The position numbers and the translations under genes are program-made. A stretch of DNA of 62,296 nt, counting the filler, from Globobulimina sp. (lineage: Eukaryota), in the NCBI GenBank assembly GCA_003354225.1. It is 36 parts of 36 records of this genome, joined end to end, with 100 filler letters (N's around TTAATTAATTAA, not from the genome) between each part and the next. Parts side by side here need not be neighbours in the genome. Positions count along the whole stretch, not along the records: positions 3,471 to 5,105 come from PIVH01013820.1; positions 5,206 to 6,840 come from PIVH01013821.1; positions 6,941 to 8,575 come from PIVH01013822.1; positions 8,676 to 10,310 come from PIVH01013823.1; positions 10,411 to 12,044 come from PIVH01013824.1; positions 12,145 to 13,778 come from PIVH01013825.1; positions 13,879 to 15,512 come from PIVH01013826.1; positions 15,613 to 17,246 come from PIVH01013827.1; 28 more parts are not named here. One strand, given 5' to 3'. Of the stretch, positions 4,884 to 61,702 are shown one piece after another. The notes under the pieces were generated by a model. It was not told the DNA's origin. It searched no databases and was given only the letters and a program-made list of their open reading frames with translations. Positions within the stretch are counted from its first letter, which is position 1, and the number at the start of each line of letters is the position of its first letter.

Positions 4884-5248
4884 CTAAAGTAATCCAGAGA
4901 TAATTATCAGTCCAACACATGTACAATTTCAACAATTGAGTCTTCATAGAAAACGACCTAACGCTATAATTCCATTCGAAAAAGTTTATTTAATTTCGAA
5001 TGGAATCAGCGTTGTTGCCATGCTGCAAACTCATTTTTACTTCAAAAGTTTTTTACTCCAAACAATGACTCAACACCATGGGCAATATTGAAATTGTACA
5101 TTTGTNNNNNNNNNNNNNNNNNNNNNNNNNNNNNNNNNNNNNNNNNNNNTTAATTAATTAANNNNNNNNNNNNNNNNNNNNNNNNNNNNNNNNNNNNNNN
5201 NNNNNATAATGATTTCCAGGGGTTTCTGAGCGTTACCGCTCCCATAGG

Positions 5249-5539
5249 TTGCATGTTAATGTATTTGGACAAATATTCATTTATAACAAGATGACAAATC
5301 AGCAATTCCATGGTGGTTTAATAACAGATTTACCGAAGGATGCGACAGTTGGGCAACTTTATGAAGCTGTTCAATCCGCATTAAACATCAGAAATCCTCA
5401 ACACATTCAATTATATTATCCGGAGAGTGAACCAATCAGAAAAACAGAATTGTCGCTACCTTTGGCAGATAGAAATCCACCAATTAGTACAATGGCTGAA
5501 GATCCCACAATAATTTATCTACCAACAGTAATCAGTTAA
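5249..5539 (+). CDS. Ubiquitin-like domain protein fragment
   Basis: QIFIYNK...DLPKDATVGQLYEAVQSALNI..IQLYY...LSLPLAD resembles a beta-grasp Ubl fold. Confidence 0.4.
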   Translation: MHVNVFGQIFIYNKMTNQQFHGGLITDLPKDATVGQLYEAVQSALNIRNPQHIQLYYPESEPIRKTELSLPLADRNPPISTMAEDPTIIYLPTVIS

Positions 5540-5595
5540 GCATGAAATAATTGAATTTGAATATTTTATTAATATTATAATTGCACGCTACACAG

Positions 5596-6121
5596 CTACA
5601 ACAAGTCCATGGTTTGGTGGTAGTAGTTTTGGTTTTTACCAAAGGAAGGCCGTTGACATGGATCAAGGCCTAAAATTAACAGCAATAGGTACCGAAAATG
5701 GTAATGACATTGAATTCCAGGTAAATGGTACATGGGAGGTAATGAAAGGCCGCCTGAAACATTAGAATTTGATGACGATGAATTTATCAATAAAGTTTCT
5801 TTAGCTGTAGCTACAGTTTACTATGTTGAATTCATAGAGTTCTTCACCAACAAAGATCGTAGTATTCAATTTGGAATGTTAGCTGATAGAAATGTATCTA
5901 TATCGAGTGGTGGGGAATTAGTAGGCATGAATTTGAACTCAGAGTCCTGGATCGATGGTTGTTCATTTGAATGGAGAGCAAACATTTTTGATGCTGATAA
6001 ACCAGACTGCTCAGAATGTCCGGCGATGAGTACAACATTAACAACAAAGCCTGCACGAAGGATACAAAAAAACGACAACACGCACTTCAAAACTTTAAGA
6101 AATCAATACAATGTTAATTAA
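5596..6121 (+). pseudogene. Jacalin-like lectin domain with an apparent 1-nt frameshift
   Basis: TTSPWFGG...IEFQVNGTW in one frame continues as GGNERPPETLEFDDDEFINKVS...IEFFTNKDRSIQFG...LVGMNLNSESWIDGCSFEW in another. Adding one G to the run at 5734-5736 joins them. Confidence 0.5.
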
Positions 6122-6166
6122 AAACTTGATATGATATAAGATGTGAATGATAACATAACTTTTGAC

Positions 6167-6940: not shown

Positions 6941-8365
6941 CATTACATATTTCCGGCTGGGTTTGGGATTTAGCAGCACGTAGATATTGGAAAAAAGATC
7001 ATTTTGCGCACTTTATAACTTCAACATTCATCCCATACTATGACAACATTGACCAATTTGAACGAAAATATAATATATCTGATACATTTGGCATTGATTA
7101 TGATATTAATGATGACAACGAGGAGGAGAACAATGCTGGAGATAATAATACAACATCATTAAAATCTGGTTTTCTAAATCGATATGCAAAGGATAACAAG
7201 AAACGGAAAGTTGCAGCGGAGAGAAAGTTCCATATTCATAAATTAAATGAAATTGATACATCATCACTCGCCGATATTGCCTCATCCACAAATAAGTTGT
7301 CAATGAGTTTATTTTACGAAGGAATGCAAAGATTGTGGTATGTAATGCATTTTGGTCGGATATGAGTTTGAATTCATATTACTTTAATGACTCATATCCC
7401 ATCCAAGTGGCTGTATGAAAAAGGTATAGATTTTGGATTTTAACGGGGGTGGTAACCATGCCAATTTTTGTAATATTACTGACTGAAATTATTGTACCTT
7501 CGCTGCATTCGTCCATTGATTCGTCGCATGGCGGAATACACTCGCAACTCTTCGCAGATATGTTTGTGCCGTTTAATACAATAATTATATTTCTGCGAAT
7601 ATTTTATGTAATTTGCAACTTTGTATTCATGCTGTTTTATTTTAAATTCATTTGTGAATGTCATCGGGGCGATGTCTTAATACATTTGCATTATTTTGAT
7701 ACATCGGATATTATAAAGAAATATAATCGTAATCAGATGCAGTATTACAAAGAAATGGAGAGTAGATTAGCTGCGATTGTTTGGAATTGGGATCGAGTCA
7801 TATCAGTTACACAAAAAACAAGCTTTGCATTTAGGTATGTTATATTCGTATTGTTTTGGAAACACATTGTTTATGTCATTTCTGTTGCAGACATTGGATA
7901 TTTGTCACATTTGTAATAAATTTTATGGCTGCGGTGGTTGCAATAGTTAACTTAGCAATACATTTGGAGCAATTTCCACAACATTTGGAAATGTATATAC
8001 CTGCTTTGGTTAATGTTGTTATCTCATTTTATGTGATGTTTGTTGGCGCTCAAATAGCGCACATGAATACGACTGTGGATAAAAGAACATATTTCTTGTT
8101 AGCCACTGCTCATTTCGCTCATGTTGATGTGCATATAAATAGAGATGAACATAAAATTAATGAGGATGTGGATGCAATGATGTTACTTCAAATAAGACAG
8201 CAGAATCTATACTCGCAAGCGCAAGCTGTCGCAAAAACAGCAAAAACAATGCCACTCGGAATTGCTGTATATGGACTAGTATTGCATCGCAATTTATTCT
8301 TGGCATTTTTTGCGCCATTTATAACATTTTTAGCTTTGTGTTTGAATCAATGGCTACCAAAATAA
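6941..8365 (+). CDS. Multi-pass membrane protein, gustatory-receptor-like (7TMIC/GRL/DUF3537-like); exons 6941-7337, 7424-7834, 7891-8365
   Basis: Removing two GT-AG introns gives one open frame. The C-terminus PLGIAVYGLVLHRNLFLAFFAPFITFLALCLNQW resembles the TM7a/7b signature of GR/GRL/DUF3537 proteins. Confidence 0.55.
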
Positions 8366-8829
8366 CAACTACTTTTTGTATTTTTTATTTTCAGAACTTG
8401 ATTTATGACTATAGATCATAAGAAACTTGATCTGACTTTGTGCTGGATTTGCAAACCCAAGACAAAGTTATAACAAACCCAGTACAAATCCAAGACAAAG
8501 TTATAGCAAACTGTTTCTGGATTTGCAAAGCGTTTCTCAGATAATTGAAAAAAATGTATACAACTTATCGACCAGNNNNNNNNNNNNNNNNNNNNNNNNN
8601 NNNNNNNNNNNNNNNNNNNTTAATTAATTAANNNNNNNNNNNNNNNNNNNNNNNNNNNNNNNNNNNNNNNNNNNNTAAAAACAAAAACAAAACACAGAAA
8701 AAAGATTAAATTGGCAACTGTTTTAACAAGTGTTTCTGAATAATTACAACAGATTTCGAAGTTTGAACTTTATATAAATATTAAATACCAAAAAGGGGTG
8801 GAAACAAAACAAAGTACATATGTATGTTT

Positions 8830-14155: not shown

Positions 14156-15139
14156 ATGGCGTCTTCGTCGTCTTTCAACACAAATAAGGGATATCAATAT
14201 GTGCTTGAATGCTTAGAGGACACCGACGAAGCAGTACAAATCGAAGATATATGGAAGGTAAACTGAAATAAATATACTTTTTACTGCATAGTAAGTACTA
14301 ACAAATAGTATTGTATAATGTACGCAAAGCTAGCAAAGTTATACTAATTTCCTTGTATTTGCCCGATTTCAGGCGATGTCTGATGGAGATAAACTATATT
14401 TTGAAAAACGTTCAAAAGTCTGGAGTACTGAGAAGTTGGCCATGTTTTATGACAAACAACGTATTCGATGCATACATGATCAGAGTTTTAAGAACATTTG
14501 TCAAGCTGTTGGATTCGATGAACACGTATGTTTAAATATTATAGATACATATATGTACGGTTTGTACATACCGGGCACATTTTCTGTGAAAATAATATCA
14601 AAATAACACTAAAATAGGCTTATCAACTGTTATTTTATAGTTTTTAATACTGATATCACATTAAATGTGTGTTATTTTTATGAAGATAATTGAACTTTTT
14701 GCTGAAAATTGCAGTTTTCGAGAATTTATGAACTTTTTGACTTTTCCTTGAATAAGCCTATGGGCTTATTTTAAGATTCGTTGTGAGAAGCCGAAAAATG
14801 CCAAAACTTAAAACAAGCCCATGGGCTTATTTACGGAAAAACCCGGTACTGACACCACATACAGTACTGCATGTCTATATATACTTGGTGTAATACTATT
14901 ATACTATTAGTACAGATATAGTAGGTATTATATGTTTTTTATTTAAGATGGACGAGGACTCGACAACAGAAAGTTCCTCTGGTGATGATGATGATGTATT
15001 CTTGTGCAAGTTTCGTCTACATGGACGTGTGAAGGATAATGAATCGTTGTCCACTTATCTTGAACGTGTCTATGTGCCAGAGCCGGAGTCGGATGATGAG
15101 GATGAATTGTTATCCACTTATTGTTATCCACATGTACGG
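14156..15139 (+). CDS. Hypothetical spliced gene; exons 14156-14257, 14373-14525, 14948-15139 (3'-partial)
   Basis: Three exons join in frame through phase-0 GT-AG introns. Confidence 0.45.
14571..14846. mobile_element. Degenerate Tc1/mariner/pogo-like MITE inside an intron
   Basis: TA-CCGGG ... CCCGG-TA termini (TA target duplication) and two copies of the palindrome ATAAGCCYATGGGCTTAT-like at ~14752 and ~14813. The left TIR is decayed. Confidence 0.55.
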
Positions 15140-15330
15140 GTACGTCAAATTTTGAAAAAAATTGCATATTTGAACACAATTTTGGAAAAAAAATTTTACC
15201 CCCCCCCGGAAATTTCGGGGAAAACCCCCCCAGGGCAATCGAGCTTGAGCACCTATGTCTCCAATTGAACCCTTGAGAGAGAGTCAGCAAATAAATTCTG
15301 ATTGAAACCAACTGCTTTTATTTCTTAACA

Positions 15331-15771: not shown

Positions 15772-17246
15772 TCATTGCATAGAATTGCATGTTTGCGGTG
15801 CAAAACATTGACATGTCGCATTTACAATTTGGGCCCAGAATGGGATAGCAGGCAAAGTATTGTTAGCCACACCAGTTTTAATCGGACATGAATTTGGTGG
15901 ACACGGATAATAATCCCGATTTAATTTGCCACAGCACGGATAATCAGACCATGCATATCTTACACCACTTATTTTAGTTACATCAATATTCCCCTTATTC
16001 ACAGAGTTTAAATCCACCACAACACTCAAACCATCTGTGCCTTCTTCTATACTTTGCGCAAAATACCAAACTTTTCCGATTTCCACTTCCAACGCAGTCC
16101 AATCCTGCACAATTGTATAATTTACAGATGTATTATACCACGCCACAAATGGATAAACATGAACTTTGCCATCATTCCCTGGCAAAATACTTAATGTTTT
16201 ATTAAATTGGATCACTATTTGCTTGGTTGCATTATTTAATTTACAACCAGCCAGTGCTGGCCCTATATTCTGACAGTTATCAATTGTGCTCGAGCCTTTA
16301 TATAATATGGGATAGCCAGACTGCGCTAACCTTCTTCCAACAATTAATTTAGGTCTGGGATGTATTGGCCCCATATAGAAATTTGTTTTATTCCACGAAT
16401 AGGGAGCATCGCCTTGACACGTTGGCGGTGTTAAATAAAAACAATTTTTATTCCATGGCTCACCAGTATCATAGGCTTGAGCTGCAAATGTATTTACTAA
16501 TTCTGCGTTGGGCAAATAACCAAAATTGCCCAATTGCGACCATCTAATTAACATATTAAACATACAAAGAATTTGTACACAGAACTGGAGATGTTTTGGT
16601 GTGCTATCAATTGGAATATATATAGAGCTTGAAAACAATGATAAACATTTGCGATTTGCAGAAACATTTAGGACATTGTTTTCCAATTTGCAGCAATTCC
16701 AAAAAACAAAGATCGAACAAGAAACATCTCCGTATGAACTGTACAAATTAAAGCATTATCATAACCTGAATCTTCCCATATTAATGCCATGGCCTTCTGA
16801 AGTGCCCCCAGCTAATGTGACTAATCCAAATGGAGCAGTTGAAGACGTCGTATTTGGTTCCACTGACCACTGCGATCTCCATTGTCTTAACATGAATGGT
16901 TCCATGCATCCATAGCCTGTGAAATTTAACCAACTGCCTGGTTCTTCATATACATTATTTTCACCCTGATACCATAGAAATGCTTTGACCGTCATATTTA
17001 AATAGGTAGCTACCAATCCATTGTATAAACCGCCACATTTCATATCGGGACACACTGAATCTTTACAAAATAACTGTACTGTTTGGTTTTGGATCCAAGC
17101 TTCAATCATACTGCCACCGACACTCACATCAATTAAGCCTACATCATGACAGCATATATAACATAAATATGATAAAATAATACAAATAAGACACACCTAT
17201 ATTGATATCAGTCATATTGTACACTCCTACAACTACCAGTATCTTG
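15772..17246 (-). CDS. Sialate O-acetylesterase (SASA/SIAE-like), 5'-partial; introns 17139-17196 and 16544-16765
   Basis: IGLIDVSVGGSMIEAW, LYNGLV, FLWYQGENN, IHPRPKLIVGRRLA and VRYAW motifs. Confidence 0.9.
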
Positions 17247-22547: not shown

Positions 22548-23759
22548 ACCATTCATAAATTTCATTGCTGTATTTTCAACAATTTCAATATTTTCACCTA
22601 GGCCTTTTACTAAAATATGATCAACAATTTCGTTATTCGGCGTATATGGGTTATCTGCACATCGCGTACATTGAACAGAAACATCTAATTCTTCATCGCT
22701 CCCAAACACATTCTTTAATCCTGACTCATTCAATAAATTATCATAAATATCCTGTCTTGAATTAATACCAATATTCAAGTCACCCAAAACAATTACATTC
22801 CCATTTGTATTTTTAACAATATCCACCATTGCAGCAACATCTAATTGTGTAATATTTGCTAATTCTGTGACTCCGTTATCAATATTAAATTGTCTCATTG
22901 TTGTAAATGGAGATAAGGCAAAGGTTGGAGTCTCAAAATGAGTGCAAATAATGGTCATATTAATTGGATCCGTTACCGTGGCAATAATAGCACCTCGAGG
23001 AATAAATACAGCTTCAGGAATTTCTACAAATTGTACAGATTCAAATGCGTATTTTGACCATAATATAATTCCTTCATTTGGTTTATAATCAAAAGGTTGC
23101 GAATTGCCACAAATATCATACACATCACTTACGGCGTCAGTGCTATTCACGTCATAATCACTCCAAACTGATTTGAGTTGATTGACATAATAAGATTTCC
23201 ACAAACAAACCAAACACGCACTTAATTCAAACGTTTCCCCGAAGTCAAATAAAGTTGGATTTAATGTGCGATTTGTAATGGAAGTCGTCGGATCTCTTAA
23301 TTCTGCAAAACAGTCCCAAACACAAAAGATAAAACCAAAGATAGATCCAGGCAATGCTGCTACAGCACAGCTTTGCGCACATTCGAACATTACACCATCG
23401 GACTCCAAAAAGGAAGCAATTTGCGCGGAATCACACGCAATATCAGAAAGTGACGGGTTTTCTTTGTAAAATGAATGTGGAAATAAATCAGCAAATGCAT
23501 CTGAATAATCATCGATTGAGGCAAAGGTATGGGCTTCCTGCGTGCACACAAAATCTAAATCGCCAAATAAGGAATCCATGTTCGAAAATACATAATCACG
23601 ACGAGCTGTGTACGCAATATATACAGATGACAGATGCTATATTTTTTAATTTTTTGGATGTTTTTGTATATTTTGTATACCTGTTCTATCGCCACCATAA
23701 TAGACGTCGAATGAGTTCCATGTCCCGATGCTAAATGTCGTATCAGTATCACTCAACAT
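22548..23759 (-). CDS. Endonuclease/exonuclease/phosphatase (EEP) family protein, 3'-partial; intron 23606-23680
   Basis: SIGTWN, DFVCTQE, GIILWSKY, IICTHF, VIVLGDLN and VDHILVKG. Confidence 0.85.
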
Positions 23760-27746: not shown

Positions 27747-29350
27747 GAATAATATAAATAATCATCAATTTGATAGTATGAACCGGACTGCAGTTCAAAG
27801 GGAATCGGCGCTTTTTCTTCACTAATGGCAAATGCATTGGTCACCAAATCAAACACAATCACATTATCCGACAGAAAAGAATTATTTGGATATGGACTGG
27901 CTTGATCTCCAACTGCACCAAGTTGCGTATACACACCGCCAATCATATACAATTTCTCATTATATGTACCATAGGCCATACTTGACAAATTTTGTGGCAT
28001 TAAATTGTCAGTTTGTAACTGAAATGTCATTGAATTAATTGATACATTACCTGTTAATACGCCCGGTACTAAATTTTCGATATACTGCTCATTACAATTA
28101 ATACAGCCAATTTGCAGCGCATTTACCGGCGTCAGCGTCCAGCTCTGTCCTCCTACCAAATAAATTAAACCGGTCTCGTGGTCGTAACTAATCGCAGCAG
28201 AACTTGTATTCAAATGTAACTTATTCACAGAACGCGTCAAAGTATCAGTGCTGATATGATACATTTGGATCCAATCCAATGTCTCTTCCCTATAATTGAA
28301 AAAAATGGAATCTTCCGCTACATTACCACCGAATAAAAATATCATATCATATGCTTCAATCAACAAAGGCATCACATTCATAACAGAAACACCCATTGAC
28401 TGCGTAGACACAGACCATCGATTGGTGTTATAATCAAAGATCTGTATTTGTGTAGTTTGCCGTCCACTGAATACATATAAATGGTCATTATAACCAACAC
28501 ACGTTGCTTCAGAAACAGGTGTTCTTAAATCCCTCATTGCCACCCAAGTCAGAGCTGTTTCGTTATACAAATAGGTGTGGCGTACTCCTACGCCTTCCCA
28601 CTCATTGGTTTGTCCTCCGACATGAAATAAATACGTCAACCCATCAATGGTGGATATGAAGCCACATAATGAGCCTCTGGCAATTCCGCGAGCGATATCT
28701 GCAGTGGCGGTGGGTAGCGCTGCTGCTAATTTTGTAAAGGATAAATCAGCGAAATGCATTTTCCAAACCGAACAATCGTCATTGTAACAATAATGGCATG
28801 AGACTCCCGCGCAACTTGTTGGTAAATAATAGATATATTCACCAATTTGACATTGGCCGCTCACAAATCGCAATTCAAAATGGAATGGTGCTGTGGAGGC
28901 TGCTCTGTTGATCGAATGAGATGTCATGTTATATGATAAAATTTCATTAATGCTTTCCTGATTTGGCAATAGTCCGCCAACCATAAATAAGCTCCTGTTT
29001 TTTGTTTTTGTTTGTAATTTAAACAGTATACAATATTATATTAATGAGGGCATGGAATGGCAGATTACAATCCAGTGTAATGCGTAAATGTTATTGCTAA
29101 CATTTTTATTGACGACATATACAGTGTTTGTATTGATATTTGACTGAGCGAATATAATATCAAAATTAGTCTGGATGACTGGATGTAATTCGTTATTCCA
29201 TACCCTCATATATTTCGATACGAACCTGTCATAAGTACCATACGCCATTCTCTGCGTTGTTTGAACTGATGATTCATGATAAAAAGTGATGTTTTGTATC
29301 AGTTGGGCCATGCCAATTGATATTAATGTTGTAAATACCAAATAATGCAT
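27747..29350 (-). CDS. Secreted kelch-repeat beta-propeller protein, 3'-partial; intron 28995-29225
   Basis: Signal peptide and repeated LFMVGG, LFHVGG, LYVFSG, IFLFGG, IYLVGG and LYMIGG blades. Confidence 0.85.
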
Positions 29351-29587: not shown

Positions 29588-31112
29588 TTAACTAATGATC
29601 AGATTATTTTCTACAAGATCAGTATACAAAGTTTCATCAATTTCGATATCGGTGTATGTCTGAGTTAACGTCTGAGACAACGTGGTATCATCAAACGATG
29701 TCTCTGTTGGTGTATTTGTGACAGATCTATTTGTTCTTGATCTGTTATTAAAATTTATAAATTTATGAAGTTTCCCATTAATTCCTCGAAATTCTTGTAT
29801 ATTTAAATAAAAATATTTGTTGACATTTCTTACATATTTATCCTGATCCTTAATCAATAAAATTGTCACTAAAGATCCAATAAATGAGAAAAACGCAAAT
29901 GCTACAAACGTAGCCCGGATATTGAATATATTTGAAAACGAATCATAAAATACTTCACCAAACGCTGCCCCTATTTTGCCAAATGCTGATGATATCCCAT
30001 AACATGTACATCTAATCGCTGTCGGGAATAATTCCACCGGCAATATAAACGTTGTTATGTGTGCACTGCAATTTGCTACAAATAGAGACAGATAATACAA
30101 TATAATAAACGTCGCATTATAGCCTTTATTATTGGTATTTTGCAACTTATCCCAACTTATACCTAACAGTAAAAAGCAAAATATACTTTGATATCGATAT
30201 TGCAATAATACATGCTGTTAAATCGTAGCTCGCACACTTTTGTATACACCAAAGTTTATTTCGCTTTTTACCTAAAATGAAAAACATAATGCCCATAAAT
30301 ACAAAGCCAAATATCTGCAGTCTACGACAGCCAAACATCTTCAAAACAAAATAGAATCCAAGCAAGTATGCCGGAATAATGGCAGCAGAAACAATCACAT
30401 TCTGCAGAGAAATGTCGTCAATGTTCTCAAAGCTTTTATTAATAATACTGCCATCACACACTCTCTGTGCATATATGATAGAGTCCAATGTGAACCATGC
30501 AATAGACGTCGCACATATGGTTTTGAAATAAAATTTGTAAATCACAAATAATTTAGCCTTGACTGCAAATGGATTGCTTTCTTTTGGATTTTCATTGATT
30601 GTGTTGCTCGGAAAAATGGTAGAAAGCATATTCTCCAAAACAACATTTTGTTCATTTTTATCAGAAACATATAGCTCAGGTTCAACGTTTCTAAATTTAT
30701 ACCGTGGATACAAAGCAATGCAAGCTGGCAAAATACCAATGACAAATAATAAACGCCACACTAGATCCAAGTTTTGAGGGTCATAACTTTGTTGATTGGG
30801 GATCAATAATTTCACCAAAATATAGGTGATTATTGATGCAAATAAAGAGCCACAAATTGTATACATAAATTGAATACATAAAACGTAGAATAATTGTTTT
30901 TCATGAAATGATTCAGAGTGAGATTCATATGCTGATGTTGGAGCTAATGGATATTCGGCACCAATGCCAAAACCCAGTACGACACGACTTATTATTAATA
31001 AATATATCATTACCTTTAGTATAGAAGTGTTATATTAATAATTTAATATATATTATAAGTTTATACAGACCTTTCCATTATTGGTATAGACCGAGGCACA
31101 TAAAATACCACC
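29588..31112 (-). CDS. MFS transporter, Pho84/PHT1 phosphate:H+ symporter-like, 5'-partial; introns 31014-31070 and 30163-30271
   Basis: RVVLGFGIGAEYPL, LDLVWRLLFVIG, RRLQIFGF and TTFILPVELFPTAIRCTCYGISSAFGKIGA. Confidence 0.9.
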
Positions 31113-32945: not shown

Positions 32946-33227
32946 AAGGTGGGTGATGACTCTCCGCTTGATGAAAGAATAAACTATGTTTTGGTTACAG
33001 AGATTAACCCTGGTCTTTCTGCCCATGGTGGTGATGTTTCACTGGTCGAAATTACTGAAGATAATGTTGCTATATTGAAATTTGGCGGTGGTTGCCAAGG
33101 TTGTAGTGCCGTAAGTATCACACTAAAAGAGGGGGTAGAGAAAACGCTAATTGAGCGTATCCCTGAGCTCAGTTCTGTAAGAGATGTTACTGATCATACA
33201 GTTACGGATAATGCTTATTTCCAGTAA
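32946..33227 (+). CDS. nfuA: Bacterial Fe-S biogenesis protein NfuA, C-terminal NifU domain
   Basis: [16 protein letters not shown]...[23 protein letters not shown]...VRDVTDH, typical of gammaproteobacterial NfuA. Confidence 0.92.
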
Positions 33228-33329
33228 GTAATCCTGTGTTGAATGTTTAGATGAGTGCTGCTCATTACCATTCACATTTGCTTGGATCGTTAATACACAG
33301 CAAGGCATTGACTAGTAGATAAGCTATGC

Positions 33330-34049
33330 ATGCTGTGTATTATTTGTGGTTGTGCGGTATTCGTTATATTCCTCATTCATTACCATTACAAACGAAGGCA
33401 TAAAGAGATTAAAAAACATCGTTCCAACTCAGACGCTCAACACGAAGGAGAGGACACACATACAATTCCTGTGGAAGCCACTGCTGTGGCGGCTGATCAA
33501 TTTGAAGGTGGGCAGTTTTTGCAGACATTGACACTAAAAGGTTTTCCAAGCGGGAGCTTACCTCAGATCCCAGACTCAATGCCATCCAAAGCCCAGGGGC
33601 CTGGCCCTCTGTTAGATGTTAGTTCAGCCACTGATATGGAATCAATGTATGGTTCTGTGCCTCGGGTAACCTCTGGATTCGCAAAATCGCCCCCGCATAG
33701 CAATAATTTGAATGGCAATTATGAGAGTGGGGGGCTACCAAAACCAGACGATCTTAATGAAGACCATGAGTATGAGTATTATTATGAGGATGAATGCCAA
33801 GTAGATGCAGAAGAGCCTGAGTATGAGTATTATTATGTGGACGAAGAAGTGAGTGTGGCAGAAATGATATACTTGCAATACTTTCAGAAATTTGGGTATC
33901 CTCCAAAAGAGGCTGGTCATTTGCTAAGATTTGCTAAAGAAAAGAATGAATCAATGACATGGAAGGAGGCCAGTAATACGGTGAAAAATCCTCCGTCAAC
34001 AAATGTCGACGAATCAGCCAGTCAACAAAATAGTGCTTATCGCGAGTAA
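33330..34049 (+). CDS. TM helix plus cytoplasmic tail of a eukaryotic single-pass membrane protein (fragment)
   Basis: Hydrophobic segment, basic stop-transfer residues and a duplicated EYEYYY motif. Confidence 0.6.
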   Translation: MLCIICGCAVFVIFLIHYHYKRRHKEIKKHRSNSDAQHEGEDTHTIPVEATAVAADQFEGGQFLQTLTLKGFPSGSLPQIPDSMPSKAQGPGPLLDVSSATDMESMYGSVPRVTSGFAKSPPHSNNLNGNYESGGLPKPDDLNEDHEYEYYYEDECQVDAEEPEYEYYYVDEEVSVAEMIYLQYFQKFGYPPKEAGHLLRFAKEKNESMTWKEASNTVKNPPSTNVDESASQQNSAYRE

Positions 34050-36656: not shown

Positions 36657-37309
36657 ATATTAAACAAAACAAATTACTTTTTATGTTTAATTTAGGATTG
36701 AATGAATTTTTTTTTTTTATTCACTGTAATTTATTGCAGTGATCGGATTTCAACTTTTGCAGTTAATCGCTCAATAGTATGTCTTTTAGACTGGACATTT
36801 TGTAGTCTATTGATCATTTATAATTATAATGACAATAACAATACACATTAATTGTATGTCTTGCTGATTCATTTTTTTGTATTCTTTGTTTACTCATTCA
36901 GAGACAAGCAACGTTGCTGTACTTATTTTTCTGTGTTGGGAGAATGTGCATTTCTTGGCGAACAAAAAGATCTATTTAAGCTGGTTTTAATCTTAACGTG
37001 TTTCCGAAAACAACGTTTTTGATCGAGGAAGCCTCCCCGAGATCAAAAACTTGTTTTCGGAAACACGTTACTCGCCGAGAAATCAAAACAATTGGAATAC
37101 AACTTTTTATTGCAAAAAATGACCATACAATGCTAGAGCTTTTAGTAACAAATACACCTTCCTTTGCACCAATATTATATCCAACCACTGAACCATCCAT
37201 AAATCCAACTTGGAACCAACAGTCAAATTCCATCCTTTTCACCTAATTCACAAATCCAAGCATCCTACTTTAATATATAAATTGCGGCATTTTCAAGAAA
37301 TAATTTATT

Positions 37310-42913: not shown

Positions 42914-43343
42914 GTACTTGCAAAAAAACCTTGTTGCTAAATAGTAACTAAAAAGACGTGTTAGAAACACTGCGTTAGAAAACATTTGGAAAAATGAACC
43001 AGCTCCAACAAAGCGACTAGCTTTCGAATGTGCGAATTTTTAAAATGAAGTGTTTCTAACCGTCTTTTAGGACGGAGTTTTGCGGATATATTAATTGGTT
43101 CAATTTTGGTGTTTTTGAGAGTTAAGAAATTGAATCTGGATATTAATAGTTTTGGAAAAATAAAGCAAATAATATTCATATTGAATTGAAAAAAAAATAT
43201 TGGCATAATAACAATCATTGTGGATAAAAATCAGAACTAACACNNNNNNNNNNNNNNNNNNNNNNNNNNNNNNNNNNNNNNNNNNNNTTAATTAATTAAN
43301 NNNNNNNNNNNNNNNNNNNNNNNNNNNNNNNNNNNNNNNNNNN

Positions 43344-48540: not shown

Positions 48541-50172
48541 GTGAATAAGCATTTTATAAATGTGCAGGATGTGTTTGCTGAGATGGAGAGGGAGAACGAA
48601 CAATACATATTTGATTTGAATGACGAGATGAAAAATCGTGAGACGGAGTGCAGTGAATATGAGAGGAAGTACGAAAAAGCCAATAAAGAGTTGCGACATT
48701 CGCAGAAAACGGTGTTTGAGTTTAAAGAATATATTCGAAAGTTGGAGGACACCAAACGAAGAATGAATGTGTCATTTAGGTATAATCAGGATTTTGTGTT
48801 ACATTATGGAGCTACTTTTAGTTTGAAACTGACCAAAATCACTCGAATTAGTTTCAAACTCAGACTGAGAAACAAATTTCGATCAGTTTGAAACTGAGAA
48901 ACATTTCGTTATTGTTTCTCAATTTTAAACTGAAACATTTTTGCTATTTGGAATATATATGATTTGTTTGTATTTTGTAATAGCAAGAAATCAGAGACCA
49001 GCAAAGATTTAAAATTAGAAAAAGAAATGTTGGTACGATGTAATGTAGAATTGCTGGACCGGATAAATAATATCAAAAAGGAATTGATTCATTATACAAA
49101 CATCGCAGCCAAAGGTTTCAGTGATTCTATATATTGCGAGATATTAAAACAACATATTCCCGGCCAAATAAAATGCGATTATGGCTGTATGGAATTGTTG
49201 GGATTCTTACAACGCATCTCCTTCAAAGCACAATTTGCGAAGAAAATATTAGATTCTTTTTACATTTCGTTTGAACGGCAAGAAAACACCATGTTAGGCG
49301 TGCAAATGTTTGGCGATAATATAGATATTCGCGATACATATAAGGTGCTAGAAATATGTCCAATGTTAGTCAAACATGATAGGTTCATCGATTGTGTGTT
49401 TCGTGGACTAATCACGGCGTATAATATGGAGAAATTCAATGACAGCATCAATGACTCTGCGCGATTACTAGATATCGAAGAGAAATATAATAAGTTATTA
49501 CAATCTGCGTCGAGTAATAACATTCGTGGCGGTGACACATCAGTGTCTATATCGGATATATTTAGCTGTAATGATCTATTTCGTTCGTTTATTTGTAAAC
49601 ATTTCCCGCATGTATGTATGAAATATTTTGATTGATCAGACTTTCAGTTTCAAAGTGAAGAATAGACGTTTATGTATTGATATTTTTCAGTTTTGAAACT
49701 GGAATCAAGTGTTTTTCAGTTGTGCCAAGCTGCCATGACATGAGGACTTAAGGTTTTCACTTTTCAGTGAAAATAATGTTGAGCATGGCACCCATGAAAA
49801 ATGGGACACAGTCACTCATAAATTCCATACATTCTAAACAGTTGAATCCAGAACAAAAATATCGACCAAAAGAGAAGATTGACAAATGGGCAGTGTATCA
49901 GGTTGTGCAAGAGTTGAAATATAATTTATATAACATGCAGTTGAAAACCAATCAAATGAATGATATGATAATTGCAGAGAATGAGGATGGTGATGATGAT
50001 GACGACCATGGTGATGATGGGGAGCGTGGTGGAAAGCGGATGTGTATGGTTGGGGTGTTGCAAAAAATGGAAGAATATCAGGCCTATTTAACACAAATAA
50101 TCCGACGAGCATTGCAGCACTGTGAGCCAGTGAGGTGTATGAATTTTGGTAAGCGGCATAATGTAAATATGA
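48541..50172 (+). CDS. Dynactin p150Glued-like coiled-coil protein, partial; introns 48780-48983 and 49612-49841
   Basis: Coiled coil (QKTVFEFKEYIRKLE) followed by HIPGQIKCDYGCMELLGFLQRISFKA, resembling the dynactin domain by eye. Confidence 0.55.
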
Positions 50173-55700: not shown

Positions 55701-55779
55701 GCAAACAACTATAACTTGGAATATATGCGACAAGTAAATAAAACACAAACACATTATTATGTATATATTACACAGTGAT

Positions 55780-57274: not shown

Positions 57275-57367
57275 TTTAGATTGCTTTAAATCGGTTTCAT
57301 ATGAATTTAATACTAAATTCGGTTAAATTCATTAATGGGAAACCGATTTAAAGTTGGCAAACTAAAG
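57275..57367. repeat. Nested inverted repeat (fold-back)
   Basis: CTTTAAATCGGTTTC (57284-57298) pairs perfectly with GAAACCGATTTAAAG (57339-57353); inner perfect 10-bp ATGAATTTAA/TTAAATTCAT. Confidence 0.85.
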
Positions 57368-57538
57368 CGGAAGTGACATGTAATTGAACTTTTAAGTTAT
57401 AGCTCACAGAAAAAAGTTAGTTAGCAGGAGTCTAATGGATATGTAAAAATATTTTTGTCCTCCAGATGAATCTGAAACCCTTCATTGATTTTTTGATTTT
57501 TTTTATTCAGAAAAATTATTTTTTTTATTCAGAGGTCT

Positions 57539-57636
57539 CATGTACCTCCATGTACCTCTCATGTACTTCATGTACCTCCATGTACCTCCATGTACCTTCA
57601 TGTACTCCATGTACCTCTCATGTACCTCATGTACTT
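57539..57636. repeat. Minisatellite, 10 copies of a 9-11 bp CATGTACCTC unit
   Basis: Directly visible tandem array. Confidence 0.95.
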
Positions 57637-58932
57637 GTAAGAAACTTTCACACTAATTACAGAAGGGCTTTAGCAGCAAGCGTTCTAAAAAGTGATTCAC
57701 GTCCCTTCTAAACATCTATCAAGATATACATATCCAAAAATTCATTTCAAAATTACCTCTTACATAAAATTATTATACTCATAAATAACAATAAAAAGCA
57801 TGGGGAATCCACAATACAGCATAATATATATATATTCTTGCATGTTATATAATTGTTTGTTTATATTATGAAAAATATATACAGTATGTTTTTTTATATA
57901 AAATTGCAAAAGTATACAAACATATACAACAGCAACAGAAACACAAACACAAACACAAATAATAAAAGGTGATGATCGGGATTTGAACCCAAATCTTATA
58001 CTATTCCACCACATGAGATCGCACACCAAATCTCTTTTATTTTTTGTGTTTTTTGTTTTTATGGCGCACCGTTTTTATGATGCCACCATAAAATGATATC
58101 TAAATCTTCATCATTTTTCTCATTTTGTTGTTGATTTAAATATGTATTGGCATTATTTGCATTTCTTTTATTTTATTTATTTGTTTATTCACGTAATGTA
58201 AACACAAAAAATAGTTACAATAAAATAATTGATTAATATATCTTAATATAGTTTTGTTTTTGCAGTGTGATGGAAAGACATAATTTCTGTTGGATGCTAA
58301 TGTGAAACACGAACATATGCAATTTATCATTATATTAATATTAGCGATAAACCACATACAGTCCGGCGTATTCTGTGCGAAATAAATAAAATGAAGATAT
58401 TGTAAATAATGGCGGTAAAAATGTATCAAATTTACATTGTTCGTCGACTAAATTGCCACGAAAATATAGCGAAATTGTGATTGAATGGGTTACAAAATAC
58501 AAAAATAAATAAGTGGGTATTGCTTTTTTCATAATAAATGGCGTTTTTAGTTTGGACTTTGGATACAGACATTATACTCATTTCATATAATAATTCGTGT
58601 TTAAATGTACAAAATGATATATCAGAATGATTTAGAACTATAATCAGAAAATCTATGTTGTAAATATTTATGTTAAAACAGCTCGTTCTAATAATAGCGT
58701 TTTGATTTTGAGATTATTGGATTGGATATTTTATATTTGGTGAATGGCGTGGTGTATTCTGTTAATTTTAATAATTTTAAATCTTATATTCCTTTTCATC
58801 CATTCCAATATGCTCCACACGACGTCCAATGGNNNNNNNNNNNNNNNNNNNNNNNNNNNNNNNNNNNNNNNNNNNNTTAATTAATTAANNNNNNNNNNNN
58901 NNNNNNNNNNNNNNNNNNNNNNNNNNNNNNNN

Positions 58933-59931
58933 GAGCACCATGGCATCAACAAAACCGCCTATTTATACCCTCGCACGTTCACACCCGACGATCCCTCCTC
59001 TTCTGTACACCAATACGGCCCAGATTTAGCCGTCAAAATCACATTATACCCAAAATACGCACATATCACATCGATGAACGACAAAAAATCTTATAACATC
59101 AGCACAAGTCCGACGTTTAAGATAATGGACGAATATTACACACCGCAATTGCACGGCGGCCACGATCCATACAAGCATATCATCGATGATTACGAACTAA
59201 TCAAACAGTGCAAAGGCGGGGCCATATCTGTGAGCAAAAACGCGTACAAACACATTGATAAACGCATTGGCGGCAATCGCTTATCTTTGCAAGAGTTTAA
59301 GCACAAAATCAGGAAATATAGCGGTGGCAAACACGACCGGCAACACAATGCGATGAAATTTACCAATTATCGCTGCGTCGATATCTGTAAACGACTGAAT
59401 GGAATCAATAGTAAGCCGCCGGGCAAACATTGCATTCAATGCCGTTTATCATTGCAAGTGGTCCCATTGTTTTGTATCGGTGAAGGCGTCATATTTGTGG
59501 TGAATGACGGCGAGAAGCGCAAATACCGCGTTTATATCTATATCATTGCATTGTTGTGCGAGAATTATCCGATTTGTACGTTTCCGCGTTGCCGCAAAGG
59601 GTTTGATAAATATTGGGTGAAATGTGCGTGGTTCAATGATATCAATGGTAAGGAATATAAGCGACGCATGGAAAGGGGGCAAAGATTAAAGTCAAAGGCC
59701 AGGAAAAAACGTAAATATGTGGCTGTGGAGAATAAGGACATTGACAGTGTGGGTTTAAGTGATGTTTTGTGTGACGGTGCGGCCGAACCGGCGGTGAAGA
59801 AACAGAGAGTTGATATGGATATTAATATTAATATGGATGATATGGAACATGTAGAACCGGCACAGGTTGTACCAGAAAAATATTGTATGGAGGCGTATGG
59901 CAACGGATTGCTTAATTTGCCGATGATTTGA
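58933..59931 (+). CDS. Cys-rich basic hypothetical protein, 5'-partial
   Basis: Frame open from the contig edge; CIQC...CENYPICTFPRC motifs and an NLS-like KARKKRK. Confidence 0.65.
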   Translation, partial: EHHGINKTAYLYPRTFTPDDPSSSVHQYGPDLAVKITLYPKYAHITSMNDKKSYNISTSPTFKIMDEYYTPQLHGGHDPYKHIIDDYELIKQCKGGAISVSKNAYKHIDKRIGGNRLSLQEFKHKIRKYSGGKHDRQHNAMKFTNYRCVDICKRLNGINSKPPGKHCIQCRLSLQVVPLFCIGEGVIFVVNDGEKRKYRVYIYIIALLCENYPICTFPRCRKGFDKYWVKCAWFNDINGKEYKRRMERGQRLKSKARKKRKYVAVENKDIDSVGLSDVLCDGAAEPAVKKQRVDMDININMDDMEHVEPAQVVPEKYCMEAYGNGLLNLPMI

Positions 59932-60664
59932 AGTGGTTTATAACGAAGCAAATAAGAGAGAATTATTCGACATTGTTATGATTTAATGGAAACGAATAAA
60001 ATCGATGCGATTGTTATTGTGTTGATACATATTTTTATTACATTGAAAATATACATATTAATTATAATAATATGTAATTTTTTTATAGATAATATTGAAT
60101 ATATTTGGTATGAAGATACAAATGGATTTATTTTTCAATTTGAAAGGAATTCGTTTGACACACAACACAAATATATTAATATTAAATGTTGCACTCGTTT
60201 CAAAATATATTAAGCATTTATATTAATGTTGAAATTGTGATTTTATTTGTTCTTCTCGTTATTTATGTTTTCTTTAATATCATTACTGTCCATTCCACAG
60301 CCTTTTTTTTTGTAATAAATTATAAATAAACATTTCTATGTTATATCATCAATATATAATCAGCATTTTACAATCACTATACAGACACAGAATAATTATA
60401 GCGTTTCTGTGCTGTTTTCCCAAATATCTCCGTTTTTTTTATTTGTTATATTATATGCAATTTAAACCTTTAGATCCATCGCTAATAATTTCATTTTACC
60501 ATAATATCTCCAATAGTTCCATCCACGTCACATCACAATCACAGCATTGATCCACATAATCTTTNNNNNNNNNNNNNNNNNNNNNNNNNNNNNNNNNNNN
60601 NNNNNNNNTTAATTAATTAANNNNNNNNNNNNNNNNNNNNNNNNNNNNNNNNNNNNNNNNNNNN

Positions 60665-61702
60665 CATAACATTCCTATTTTGGCTATTTATGCCATTATC
60701 AAACTCTGCTTCAATCTTACGGAAATTTATAAAATCACAAAATGAGTGCATTACATGTAATTTATTTGTGTGTTTTTGTTTTTGTTTTTTATATGTATTC
60801 AATTGACGTTGTTTATTAATAACCCAATGATTGGATATAAACACTTGAATGAAATGAATTATTATAATAACAATTCTCTGCATTAAATCCGGAATGTTTC
60901 CAGGTTTTGCCCAGTACATAAGCAGCAACCATATGGCACCAAATGAAATATCAAAAGTCAATAACAATTTCATTTCTTTTTTAATGAAAAATGTGTCTTC
61001 AAAATGTGGCATTTTCCACCAAATCAAAGCAATAAGAAACGATAACATGAGTAAGAAAAAAATATGCATTAAATGAGATATTGTATGGGAATGAGATGAG
61101 TTTATAGAATGTGATAAAATGATAGATATTGTTAAAAAACACCATGAAAATATAAATATTTTTGTGAGCCATCTCCAGTTTCCCCATTTATGTTTGTTGA
61201 TTGAATACCAATCATTTTGGTTTGCTTATATATATTTTGCGATTTTGCGATTAAAGAACCCAAGAAACATAGAAACGATACAAATATATATACCTGACGA
61301 TGATAAAAGTAACTGCCAATCGTGTATAGATTTAGCTAATGCATGTTTTATATCATAATTTACCAACCATATACGAAGGAGAGTAATAATAGGTATTACT
61401 AATACAAAGATAGGACATATAATAGTTGTAATCCATGAAATATTATCACTGCGCAATATCAATGGAAAAATAGCATGTGAGAGTAACATGTATTGATCAA
61501 TTACAAATATGTGAAATATATTAAATATTGATGATGCTATTATGATAATTGGATAACGAGCGGCAATTCCTTGAAAATGACGAATACGATAAAATTTTAA
61601 TGTTACTATGACCATAAATGGTATAATAAATATGTATATTAAACATAGGATAATGTTTGAGGCTATACACATTACAATGTTATCTGTGCAAACAGTGCCC
61701 AT
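60665..61702 (-). CDS. Seven-transmembrane protein of the 7TM-RGS type, N-terminal part; intron 61225-61293
   Basis: FYRIRHFQGIAARYP, LRIWLVNYD, WYSINKHKWGN and DTFFIKKEM motifs resemble the membrane domain of plant and protist 7TM-RGS proteins. The RGS domain is not in the contig. Confidence 0.75.

What the first reader, a model, noticed from the sequence alone, without database searches (positions are those of the whole stretch)
4884..61293. Long spliceosomal introns are systematically folded into RNA hairpins
Seen: in unrelated contigs, nearly every intron longer than ~65 nt contains long nested inverted repeats (4884-5105, 7338-7423, 14258-14372, 16544-16765, 23606-23680, 28995-29225, 30163-30271, 44186-44369, 44785-44934, 48780-48983, 49612-49841, 61225-61293). 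Several 54-61 nt introns (7835-7890, 14054-14107, 17139-17196, 56453-56513) show no comparable stem. The arms differ in sequence between genes, and most imperfections are G-U pairs on the transcribed strand, which would be A-C mismatches on the other strand. Subtracting the stem from the 222- and 231-nt introns leaves 42 and 65 nt, close to the short-intron size class. Inference: selection acts on pre-mRNA structure, for example a spliceosome that needs a short effective donor-to-acceptor distance, or introns born from fold-back elements and maintained as RNA. I do not know of this being described as a genome-wide rule in this kind of protist.
Basis: partly seen in the sequence, partly recalled or inferred. 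Interest (0 to 1): 0.8.

Follow-up and report, generated by a model that had tools for sequence, protein, structure and literature searches.

The report
Fold-back hairpins in long protist introns
In this AT-rich, foraminifer-like protist about half of the long introns, but none of the short ones, contain strong inverted-repeat hairpins, a pattern already described in Giardia, Trichomonas and yeast, and it is not yet shown that the RNA fold is selected.

Summary
The window is 36 unrelated ~1.63-kb contigs of a ~33% GC eukaryote. Its best named protein relative is a foraminifer.

The hairpins are real but the finding overstates them. Of the 12 listed long introns, 7 fold far better than dinucleotide shuffles (z -2.65 to -5.9), 1 is marginal and 4 are no better than chance. 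All 4 listed short introns are unstructured. With my six extra introns: 8 of 14 long and 0 of 8 short are structured.

Controls of 200 nt: 6 of 63 other non-coding segments and 0 of 45 coding segments are structured.

Five hairpin introns have independent junction support: two from spliced contigs, two from homologues, one from Pfam continuity.

The RNA-selection reading is not established:
- The antisense strand folds nearly as well.
- Sense G·U against A·C is 13:8 (p=0.38).
- Lengths after collapsing the stems run from 3 to 65 nt, not about 57.
- In four or five introns the 5' splice site lies inside the stem.
- The two strongest hairpins lie outside every intron I could define.

Best reading: unique fold-back DNA inserts that survive in introns because they loop out. 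The principle is already published for Giardia, Spironucleus, Trichomonas and yeast.

The parts
48780..48983 (+). 204-nt GT..AG intron with a chain of four local hairpins. The strongest stem is 48883-48903 / 48913-48933. The intron holds four copies of a palindromic 13-mer.
   Evidence: Skipped exactly in contigs of 4 runs. z -3.7 / -3.24. Stems, motif.
49612..49841 (+). 230-nt GT..AG intron. The outer stem 49614-49635 / 49812-49832 joins position +3 to 9 nt before the acceptor. Inner hairpins at 49642-49664 / 49681-49704 and 49712-49731 / 49782-49801.
   Evidence: Skipped exactly in contigs of 4 runs. z -2.65 / -3.08. 5' splice-site pairing probability 0.91.
16544..16765 (-). 222-nt intron. 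Long stem 16722-16749 / 16570-16596 (23 Watson-Crick pairs of 26), inner stem 16674-16683 / 16631-16640. Leaves 16 nt at the 5' end and 26 nt at the 3' end unpaired.
   Evidence: 4 of 4 homologues align contiguously across the gap. z -3.9 / -3.67. Stems.
28995..29225 (-). 231-nt intron. Long stem 29178-29209 / 29044-29076 (27 Watson-Crick pairs of 32). Leaves 16 nt at the 5' end and 49 nt at the 3' end unpaired.
   Evidence: Homologue P0129 residues 7-49 and 46-324 flank the gap. z -5.6 / -5.34.
30163..30271 (-). 109-nt intron that is almost wholly one hairpin. Stem 30250-30271 / 30169-30190 (20 Watson-Crick pairs of 22) starts at the first base of the intron. The 3' tail is 6 nt.
   Evidence: Sugar_tr profile positions 102-334 and 342-436 on the two flanking exons. 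z -4.4 / -5.03. 5' splice-site pairing probability 1.00.
4884..5105 (-). Incomplete intron at a contig end. Acceptor at 4884, possible donor at 5099. Outer stem 5083-5099 / 4921-4938 and inner hairpin 4994-5008 / 4967-4981.
   Evidence: z -5.9. The pairing runs to the last base of the contig. The donor is unverifiable.
7338..7423 (+). 86-nt intron with stem 7352-7367 / 7390-7406.
   Evidence: z -3.0. Junctions rest on ORF logic only.
33224..33397 (+). Perfect 12-bp core 33291-33302 / 33331-33342 inside a longer fold.
   Evidence: Found by a structure-blind exon model and joins two coding ORFs. z -3.6.
23606..23680 (-). 75-nt intron with a terminal stem 23665-23680 / 23610-23625. Marginal.
   Evidence: z -2.3, 2 of 100 shuffles fold as well.
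14258..14372 (+). Listed long intron without structure above chance. The same holds for 44186-44369 (+), 44785-44934 (+) and 61225-61293 (-).
   Evidence: z -0.7, -1.5, -0.07 and -0.9.
7835..7890 (+). Short-intron class, 54-61 nt, unstructured. Members: 7835-7890 (+), 14054-14107 (+), 17139-17196 (-), 56453-56513 (-). My candidates: 11356-11413 (+), 47626-47685 (+), 36082-36140 (-), 31014-31070 (-).
   Evidence: 0 of 8 have z <= -2.5; mean z +0.24.
36944..37126 (.). The strongest hairpin of the window, and not in an intron. It lies between the 3' ends of two convergent genes: a WD40-like exon at 36414-36653 (+) and a GYF-domain ORF at 37372-37671 (-).
   Evidence: (z about -9).
14739..14843 (.). 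Second-strongest hairpin. It lies 136 nt after the stop of ORF 14373-14603 and before an ORF whose first ATG is at 14948. Whether it is intronic or intergenic is undecided.
42948..43070 (.). Hairpin upstream of, or at the 5' edge of, ORF 41645-43039 (-). A similar one at 57284-57353 sits in a contig with almost no coding signal.

Best explanation
The long introns of this organism are ordinary GT..AG introns of the about 55-60 nt class that have taken up fold-back (palindromic) DNA of unique sequence. Some of it is nested or in series.

Such inserts arise throughout non-coding DNA. They persist preferentially in introns because a self-pairing insert is looped out of the pre-mRNA. That keeps donor, branch region and acceptor close together. 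A non-folding insert of the same size would more often spoil splicing. The hairpin is therefore both the cause of the extra length and the reason it is tolerated. This is the same logic as the folded long introns of Giardia, Spironucleus and Trichomonas, and the zipper stems of yeast.

Shown here: the hairpins, their excess in long introns, and the reality of five of these introns.

Inferred: the insertion origin, and any effect of the fold on splicing.
For: 1. 8 of 14 long introns have sense z <= -2.5, against 0 of 8 short introns. Spearman rho for length against z is -0.76, p=3.5e-5. Five of these were re-folded with 200 shuffles and agree.

2. Matched 200-nt controls: 6 of 63 other non-coding segments and 0 of 45 coding segments reach z <= -2.5. 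Fisher p is 0.00026 and 1.4e-6. In sliding 160-nt windows, z < -3 occurs in 18% of 44 intron windows, 4.0% of 323 other non-coding windows and 0.5% of 811 coding windows.

3. The introns are real. Exact GT..AG skips appear in contigs of 4 runs from 4 studies for 48780-48983 and 49612-49841. Homologues bridge 16544-16765 (4 of 4) and 28995-29225 (1 of 3). Pfam Sugar_tr is continuous across 30163-30271.

4. The repeats are DNA-level palindromes. Both strands fold (mean z -2.81 against -2.22). Similar hairpins lie in intergenic DNA and 3' flanks.

5. Three introns fit 'short intron plus insert' geometry. Their unpaired tails are 14+17, 16+26 and 16+49 nt. Introns 48780 and 49612 are chains or nests of separate hairpins, as expected if each insert must fold on its own.

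6. No two hairpins share sequence (0 inter-contig blastn hits). That argues against one active transposon family.
Against: - There is no significant sense-strand signature. G·U against A·C is 13:8 (p=0.38). G·U pairs in the minimum-energy folds number 65 of 632 on the sense strand and 48 of 573 on the antisense strand.
- Six of 14 long introns are below the cut-off (five unstructured, 23606 marginal). They include unstructured introns of 150 and 184 nt, so this spliceosome may not need a short distance, if those two unverified introns are real.
- Collapsed lengths are 37, 31, 42, 4, 65, 6, 11 and 3 nt. They do not cluster at the short class.
- Exterior-loop lengths of the minimum-energy folds do not differ from shuffles.
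- In 4884, 23606, 30163 and 49612 the donor region is itself in the stem (pairing probability 0.82-1.0). That should compete with U1 binding. Published yeast modelling needs stems to begin at least 10 nt from the donor (PMC12350175).
- The sample is only 22 introns, and 17 of them have no evidence beyond ORF logic.
- The 'other non-coding' class may hide unannotated introns or exons.
- No orthologous introns were available, so there is no covariation test.
Confidence: 0.4

Rival explanations
1. Neutral DNA palindromes. Fold-back duplications or insertions arise by a DNA process such as template switching or hairpin-primed repair. They sit wherever they do no harm, in introns, UTRs and spacers. 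The RNA fold has no role in splicing.
For: - The antisense strand folds almost as well.
- There is no significant G·U excess.
- The two strongest hairpins lie outside the introns I could define. One sits between convergent genes.
- 6 of the 11 hairpin clusters in 'other non-coding' DNA lie within about 300 nt downstream of an ORF stop (my reading of the context).
- Five of 14 long introns have no hairpin.
- Donor sites are buried in stems.
Against: - Long introns carry hairpins about 6 times as often as equal-sized other non-coding segments (8 of 14 against 6 of 63, p=0.00026).
- Per kb of presumed original intron the excess is larger still.
- A neutral process should not favour introns, unless the non-coding class is badly mis-assigned.
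Confidence: 0.25
2. Introner or MITE-like elements. Short non-autonomous transposons with terminal inverted repeats insert into genes and are spliced out. The element supplies the GT, and a duplicated target supplies the AG.
For: - In 23606, 30163, 49612, 61225 and probably 4884, the inverted repeat begins within 0-2 nt of the donor (GTA...TAC) and ends 2-9 nt (37 nt in 4884) before the acceptor.
- Direct repeats abut the arms in 23606 (ACAG/ACAG), 16544 (CTTT/CTTT) and 30163 (5 of 6 bases), among 18 hairpins examined.
- Introners with this logic are published (PMC9860276, search listing only). Symmetrical proliferating introns with 45-55 nt terminal repeats are known in Hypoxylaceae fungi (PMC8469720, abstract read).
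Against: - No two hairpins in the window resemble each other (0 inter-contig hits). The terminal motifs share nothing on inspection.
- The flanking repeats have no constant length. Two of them contain the AG expected from the splice consensus anyway.
- 15 of the 18 hairpins show no flanking repeat apart from a 3-nt TTG/TTG at 57284-57353.
- 62 kb is too small a sample to see families with fewer than thousands of copies.
Confidence: 0.17
3. Purpose-built RNA elements. The stems evolved or are kept for a function other than spacing, such as mirtron-like small-RNA precursors or regulators of splicing or decay.
For: - Introns 30163-30271, 23606-23680 and 61225-61293 are 69-109 nt and are almost wholly one hairpin, with ends at the splice sites. 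This is the shape of tailed mirtrons (recalled; PMC3431481 seen in a search listing only).
- The trend towards better sense-strand folding (p=0.078).
Against: - No small-RNA data were available.
- There are no Rfam matches in the window.
- Most structured introns are 174-231 nt, which is too long for mirtrons.
- Two of the three mirtron-shaped introns are not above chance in fold energy.
Confidence: 0.08
4. Chance or artefact. AT-rich low-complexity sequence, selective reading by the first reader, or assembly fold-backs.
For: - Four of the 12 listed introns are not above shuffles.
- A loosely scored stem search gives high scores in shuffled contigs too (null median 30 against real median about 31).
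- One hairpin sits at a contig end (4884-5105).
- No laid run covers the intron sequences themselves.
Against: - Seven listed introns beat all of 100-200 shuffles.
- A structure-blind exon model recovered 7 of the listed long introns exactly, and a further hairpin intron.
- Genome-wide background z has mean 0.
- 7 of 36 contigs exceed the 95th percentile of the null even with the loose score.
Confidence: 0.04

Closest known systems
Folded long introns of Giardia lamblia, Spironucleus spp. and Trichomonas vaginalis (Hudson et al. 2019, PMC6679479; passages read)
   Same: - There is a uniform short intron class plus longer introns that can form extended stem-loops.
- The proposed role is to bring the splice sites to the spacing of the short class.
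- Long inserts are tolerated only if they fold.
   Different: - Those organisms have a handful to a few dozen introns. Here introns are frequent (22 in about 59 kb).
- Their folded lengths cluster (35-45 nt, 41 nt, 25-44 nt). Here they spread from 3 to 65 nt.
- Here 6 of 14 long introns are below the cut-off.
- Here the donor is often inside the stem.
- Neither case has mutational proof on a genome scale.
Zipper stems and downstream stems of Saccharomyces cerevisiae introns (PMC12350175; passages read)
   Same: - Stems between the donor and the branch region shorten the effective distance.
- They are enriched over shuffled controls.
- Their sequence is poorly conserved.
- Introns 16544, 28995 and 7338 have a 14-16 nt free 5' tail, compatible with the '10 nt or more from the 5' splice site' rule.
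   Different: - Yeast stems are mostly 6-20 bp within 300-500 nt introns. Here the stems are 16-32 bp and take up most of the intron.
- Four or five stems here start at +1 to +3, which the yeast model forbids.
- The branch point could not be located here.
Introners / transposon-derived introns (PMC9860276, PMC12130899; search listings only)
   Same: Terminal inverted repeats lie at or near the intron ends. There are possible short flanking direct repeats that include the AG.
   Different: No sequence families are detectable in the window. The flanking repeats are inconsistent.
Internally symmetrical (stw)introns of Hypoxylaceae fungi (PMC8469720; abstract read)
   Same: Canonical introns with long terminal inverted repeats that could make the whole intron double-stranded. 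They have no target-site duplications.
   Different: Those are sequence-similar sister copies that proliferated. Here every hairpin has its own sequence.
Euglenid nonconventional introns (PMC3935182, PMC12501133; search listings only) and mirtrons (PMC3431481; listing only)
   Same: The intron ends are brought together by base pairing. The hairpin ends coincide with the splice sites in the 69-109 nt examples.
   Different: All introns here are GT..AG, whereas euglenid nonconventional introns lack these borders. There is no small-RNA evidence for mirtrons.

Membership tests
Length-constraining folded long introns (diplomonad/parabasalid type) | A uniform short intron class beside a longer class | tested here: met
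   8 short introns of 54-61 nt against 14 of 69-231 nt. The sample is small, and 17 of the 22 rest on ORF logic alone.
Length-constraining folded long introns (diplomonad/parabasalid type) | Long introns form stable stem-loops beyond chance | tested here: met
   8 of 14 have z <= -2.5, against 0 of 8 short introns, 6 of 63 non-coding controls and 0 of 45 coding controls. Not met for the other 6 of 14.
Length-constraining folded long introns (diplomonad/parabasalid type) | The folded donor-to-acceptor length equals the short-class length | tested here: not met
   Residual lengths are 37, 31, 42, 4, 65, 6, 11 and 3 nt. Minimum-energy exterior-loop lengths are no different from shuffles.
Length-constraining folded long introns (diplomonad/parabasalid type) | The stems are needed for splicing | not testable with these tools
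   Needs mutagenesis or in-vivo structure probing.
Yeast-type zipper stem | [quoted passage not shown] | tested here: inconclusive
   Met for 7338, 16544 and 28995 (5' tails of 14-16 nt). Not met for 4884, 23606, 30163, 49612 and 61225, where the stem starts at +1 to +3. No branch-point motif could be defined.
RNA-level selected structure (any) | Strand asymmetry: sense G·U exceeds A·C, and the sense strand folds better than the antisense strand | tested here: inconclusive
   G·U against A·C is 13:8, p=0.38. Mean z is -2.81 against -2.22, p=0.078.
RNA-level selected structure (any) | Compensatory changes in orthologous introns | not testable with these tools
   The related runs hold only spliced contigs. 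The metagenome scan found no relatives.
Introner / MITE | A multi-copy family of similar elements | tested here: not met
   0 inter-contig blastn hits at E <= 1e-3 among the 36 contigs. A 62-kb sample has low power, and no whole genome is held.
Introner / MITE | Terminal inverted repeats flanked by target-site duplications of fixed length | tested here: inconclusive
   Inverted repeats are present. Abutting direct repeats of 4 nt occur in 2 of 18 hairpins, 3 nt in 1, and 5 of 6 bases in 1. Their lengths differ.
Mirtron | A hairpin of about 55-110 nt whose ends are the splice sites, giving small RNAs | tested here: inconclusive
   The shape fits 30163, 23606 and 61225. Small RNAs are not testable here. 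No Rfam hit.
Euglenid nonconventional intron | Non-GT/AG borders with the ends paired | tested here: not met
   All 22 introns are GT..AG.

The most novel reading that the evidence does not exclude
In an intron-rich, free-living rhizarian the spliceosome tolerates long introns mainly when they collapse into hairpins, so intron growth proceeds almost only by acquiring self-pairing inserts. This includes a class whose donor and acceptor are zipped together by a terminal inverted repeat while keeping canonical GT..AG. That would extend a rule known from a few dozen introns of reduced parasites to thousands of introns. It would also give a system where the rule could be tested statistically, through G·U asymmetry and covariation between the 95-99% identical relatives seen in the runs.
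Probability: 0.25. Interest if true: 0.7.

Novelty: new member of a known kind. Interest (0 to 1): 0.45.

Why it matters
If the fold is what lets these introns be long, this organism would show that a spatial limit on donor-to-acceptor distance is not a peculiarity of intron-poor parasites and yeast. It would operate in an intron-rich lineage of another supergroup. It would also point to a concrete route of intron lengthening: only self-pairing inserts survive.

The organism has many introns, and close relatives exist (95-99% identical exons in two runs). The standing question of whether intron secondary structure is selected or incidental could therefore be answered by counting, which the few introns of Giardia or Trichomonas do not allow.

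If instead the palindromes are neutral DNA or transposon remnants, the finding is ordinary genome texture.

Tried and rejected
- No whole genome is held for this window, so nothing genome-wide could be computed.
- The look-up of sequencing runs: no RNA holder listed. The kinds of the runs are '?' or a guess.
Only one contig could be laid. The intron bins have no cover in any of the 4 runs, so the intron sequences are known only from this assembly.
- My first home-made exon/intron model predicted 271 introns and was discarded. The stricter version gave 25, several of them clearly wrong (for example 7342-7770 and 26849-27252). I used it only as a structure-blind check and as a source of six extra candidates.
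- Enumerating all ORF-joining GT..AG pairs was too noisy to use.
- A loosely scored inverted-repeat aligner gave long, sloppy alignments and a high null, so I did not use it for counts.
- 'Effective length' from minimum-energy exterior loops does not separate introns from shuffles.
- A regression stand-in for shuffles (R2 0.94) was used only for the broad scan.
- Rfam gave 0 matches and ARAGORN found 0 tRNAs, so my impression of a tRNA near 58000 was wrong.
- The metagenome scan with exon 48985-49611 found no relative. I did not use the second scan.
- Pfam gave no hits for the exons flanking 7338 and 23606, or for most ORFs next to the non-intronic hairpins.
- Earlier notes of this scan held nothing on this genome and nothing relevant by keywords.
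- Searches for a description in Foraminifera or Rhizaria found no paper on hairpin introns. The library lacks many subscription papers. That includes the foraminiferal genome paper cited in PMC13746701, which I did not see. Supplements were not consulted.

Full report
**What the window is**

The window is not one locus. It is 36 contigs of 1632-1635 nt, joined by spacers of N runs around a 12-nt linker. GC is about 33%. The standard genetic code gives long ORFs with eukaryotic domains: PPR, EMP70, WD40/UTP15, CEP104 and POLQ-helical. The EMP70 ORF has as its best named relative a transcript of the foraminifer Elphidium margaritaceum (44% identity), ahead of about 38% for other eukaryotes. I therefore call the organism a foraminifer-like rhizarian and go no further. 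No whole genome is held, so every count below comes from about 59 kb.

**Are the listed intervals introns?**

All 16 have GT..AG ends on one strand and join ORFs in frame. The exception is 4884-5105, which runs into the contig end. Only 6 nt of possible exon remain, so its donor cannot be checked.

Independent support exists for five of the structured introns:
- Contigs of four runs from four studies skip exactly 48780-48983 (204 nt) and 49612-49841 (230 nt), with GT..AG ends. Two of these runs are 95-99% identical, with differences spaced like third codon positions. The kinds of the runs are not on record. An exact GT..AG skip in all four is best read as spliced mRNA.
- Four of four homologues of the SASA-type esterase align contiguously across 16544-16765. 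For example, P0121 residues 213-338 end at 16765 and residues 337-605 start at 16548.
- One of three homologues of the Kelch protein bridges 28995-29225: P0129 residues 7-49 and 46-324.
- The exons around 30163-30271 match Sugar_tr profile positions 102-334 and 342-436.

The remaining junctions rest on ORF logic. A structure-blind exon model of mine reproduced seven of the listed long introns exactly. It also yielded six further candidates, including a 174-nt intron at 33224-33397.

**Is the structure more than chance?**

I compared each intron with 100 dinucleotide-preserving shuffles. Among the 12 listed long introns:
- Seven have sense-strand z between -2.65 and -5.9, and none or one shuffle folds as well: 4884, 7338, 16544, 28995, 30163, 48780, 49612.
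- One is marginal (23606, z -2.3).
- Four are ordinary: 14258, 44186, 44785, 61225 (z -0.07 to -1.5).

The fold tool with 200 shuffles gave -5.34, -3.67, -3.08, -5.03 and -3.24 for five of the seven, and the centroids keep the long stems. The four listed short introns, and four more that I added, are unstructured (mean z +0.24).

Over all 22 introns, 8 of 14 longer than 65 nt and 0 of 8 shorter reach z <= -2.5 (Fisher p=0.018). Length and z correlate at rho -0.76 (p=3.5e-5). 'Nearly every long intron' is therefore too strong. 'A little over half' is what the sequence shows.

**Controls**

The window as a whole is not structured. 160-nt windows have mean z -0.04.

| Class | Non-overlapping 200-nt segments at z <= -2.5 | Sliding 160-nt windows at z < -3 |
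|---|---|---|
| Long introns | 8 of 14 (whole introns) | 18% of 44 |
| Other non-coding | 6 of 63 | 4.0% of 323 |
| Coding | 0 of 45 | 0.5% of 811 |

The difference from long introns is significant against both control classes (p=0.00026 and 1.4e-6). So hairpins are about six times commoner in long introns than in other non-coding DNA.

They are not confined to introns, though. The two strongest hairpins of the window are elsewhere:
- 36944-37126 lies between a WD40-like exon on the plus strand and a GYF-domain ORF on the minus strand. That places it between convergent genes.
- 14739-14843 lies after an ORF stop and before an ORF with its own ATG.

By my reading of the ORF context, six of the eleven hairpin clusters in the 'other' class lie within about 300 nt downstream of a stop codon.

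**Anatomy**

The stems are 10-32 pairs with 80-100% Watson-Crick pairs. They are often nested or in series. Two geometries occur.

- Internal stems. In 7338, 16544 and 28995 the long stem starts 14-16 nt after the donor and ends 17-49 nt before the acceptor.
- Terminal stems. In 4884, 23606, 30163, 49612 and 61225 the stem begins at +1 to +3 and ends 2-9 nt (37 nt in 4884) before the acceptor. In four of these the donor has a pairing probability of 0.82-1.0 with the 3' part of the intron. Intron 49612-49841, whose junctions are confirmed, is of this kind.

Intron 48780-48983 is a chain of four hairpins and holds four copies of a palindromic 13-mer.

Lengths left after removing the outer stem are 37, 31, 42, 4, 65, 6, 11 and 3 nt. 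They do not cluster at the 54-61 nt short class. The exterior loop of the minimum-energy fold is as short in shuffled sequences as in the real ones. 'Effective length' is therefore not a usable statistic here.

**RNA or DNA?**

- The reverse complements fold nearly as well: mean z -2.22 against -2.81 (Wilcoxon p=0.078).
- I aligned the stems with both kinds of transition mismatch penalised equally. The 35 non-Watson-Crick positions are 13 sense G·U, 8 A·C and 14 transversion-type (binomial p=0.38).
- G·U pairs in the minimum-energy folds number 65 of 632 on the sense strand and 48 of 573 on the antisense strand.

The direction favours the sense strand, but the sample cannot show it. The statement that most imperfections are G·U is not correct.

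**Transposon signs**

- No hairpin resembles any other (0 inter-contig blastn hits).
- Direct repeats abut the arms in 23606 and 16544 (4 nt each), in 57284 (3 nt), and imperfectly in 30163, out of 18 hairpins examined.
- Their lengths differ. Two of them include the AG that the splice consensus would give anyway.
- Rfam and tRNA scans are empty.

**Explanation**

The reading I prefer (0.40) has three steps:
1. Fold-back DNA of unique sequence arises throughout non-coding DNA.
2. It survives preferentially in introns, because a self-pairing insert is looped out of the pre-mRNA and leaves the splice signals close together.
3. Long introns are therefore short introns plus one or more such inserts.

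This accounts for the tie between length and structure, the excess over intergenic DNA, the folding of both strands, the nested and serial hairpins, and the lack of families.

It does not explain the buried donors or the five unstructured long introns. Its functional half is inference.

Rivals:
- Neutral palindromes with no role in splicing (0.25).
- Introner or MITE-type elements (0.17).
- Purpose-built RNA elements such as mirtron-like precursors (0.08).
- Chance or artefact (0.04).

**Comparison with what is known**

The principle is in print.
- Long introns of Giardia, Spironucleus and Trichomonas can fold so that the donor-to-acceptor distance matches their short introns (PMC6679479, passages read).
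- Yeast zipper and downstream stems shorten effective distances and are enriched over shuffles (PMC12350175, passages read).
- Symmetrical introns with long terminal repeats and no target duplications are described in Hypoxylaceae fungi (PMC8469720, abstract read).
- Introners, euglenid nonconventional introns and mirtrons I saw only as search listings.

I found no paper describing hairpin introns in Foraminifera or Rhizaria. A recent rhizarian genome paper tabulates intron statistics without mentioning structure (PMC13746701, passages read). The library lacks many subscription papers, and no supplements were seen.

**Verdict**

This is a real, statistically solid association of strong inverted repeats with long introns. 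It is overstated in extent. The evidence for selection at the RNA level is not yet there. It belongs to a known kind of phenomenon, in a new lineage.

It deserves a genome-wide test, which the full assembly and the closely related strains would make straightforward.

Noticed in passing
36944-37126: The strongest hairpin of the window (about 35 near-perfect pairs at its core) lies between the 3' ends of two convergent genes: a WD40-like exon at 36414-36653 (+) and a GYF-domain ORF at 37372-37671 (-). It could work on both strands, for example in 3'-end formation.
   Followed up: partly
8427-8509, 14739-14843, 15279-15438, 34144-34211, 61880-61930: Hairpins lie within about 300 nt downstream of ORF stop codons. 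With 36944-37126, that makes 6 of the 11 structured clusters in DNA that is neither coding nor in a listed intron. They may be a 3'-flank signal or simply tolerated palindromes.
   Followed up: partly
15279-15458: A strongly GC-rich palindromic block with runs of GCGC sits inside an AT-rich contig, just after ORF 14894-15265. It has the most negative fold energy in the window (-66 to -76 kcal/mol for 220 nt).
   Followed up: no
48819-48932, 49645-49657, 44258-44270: A palindromic 13-mer (CAGTTTSAAACTG, up to 2 mismatches) occurs 4 times in intron 48780-48983, once in intron 49612-49841 of the same gene, and once in intron 44186-44369 of another contig. In total there are 10 matches against 2.05 expected.
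   Followed up: partly
57538-57634: A tandem array of a 10-nt unit (about 9.7 copies, with a 30-nt super-period) sits in a contig (57201-58832) with almost no coding signal. The same contig also holds two hairpins (57284-57353 and 57945-58058).
   Followed up: no
48541-50172 (runs X6, X7): Contigs of two runs match the exons at 95-99% identity, with differences spaced like third codon positions. Close relatives therefore exist. Their genomic DNA would give orthologous introns for a covariation test.
   Followed up: no
26454-26613, 26814-26993, 43824-43983, 54937-55096: A few windows inside apparently coding ORFs also fold unusually well (regression z -2.8 to -4.9 on at least one strand). I did not check whether these are small unrecognised introns or coding palindromes.
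   Followed up: no
17347-17600: A GC-rich stretch at the start of the contig that carries the EMP70 gene is unlike the rest of the contig in composition. It stood out in the 120-nt fold scan (robust z -3.1). It may be another gene or a join of unlike sequences.
   Followed up: no
27176-27252: A probable 71-77 nt intron on the minus strand is built largely of GTATAT-type low-complexity repeats. Its donor has a pairing probability of 0.99, but its overall fold is not above chance (z -1.2).
   Followed up: partly
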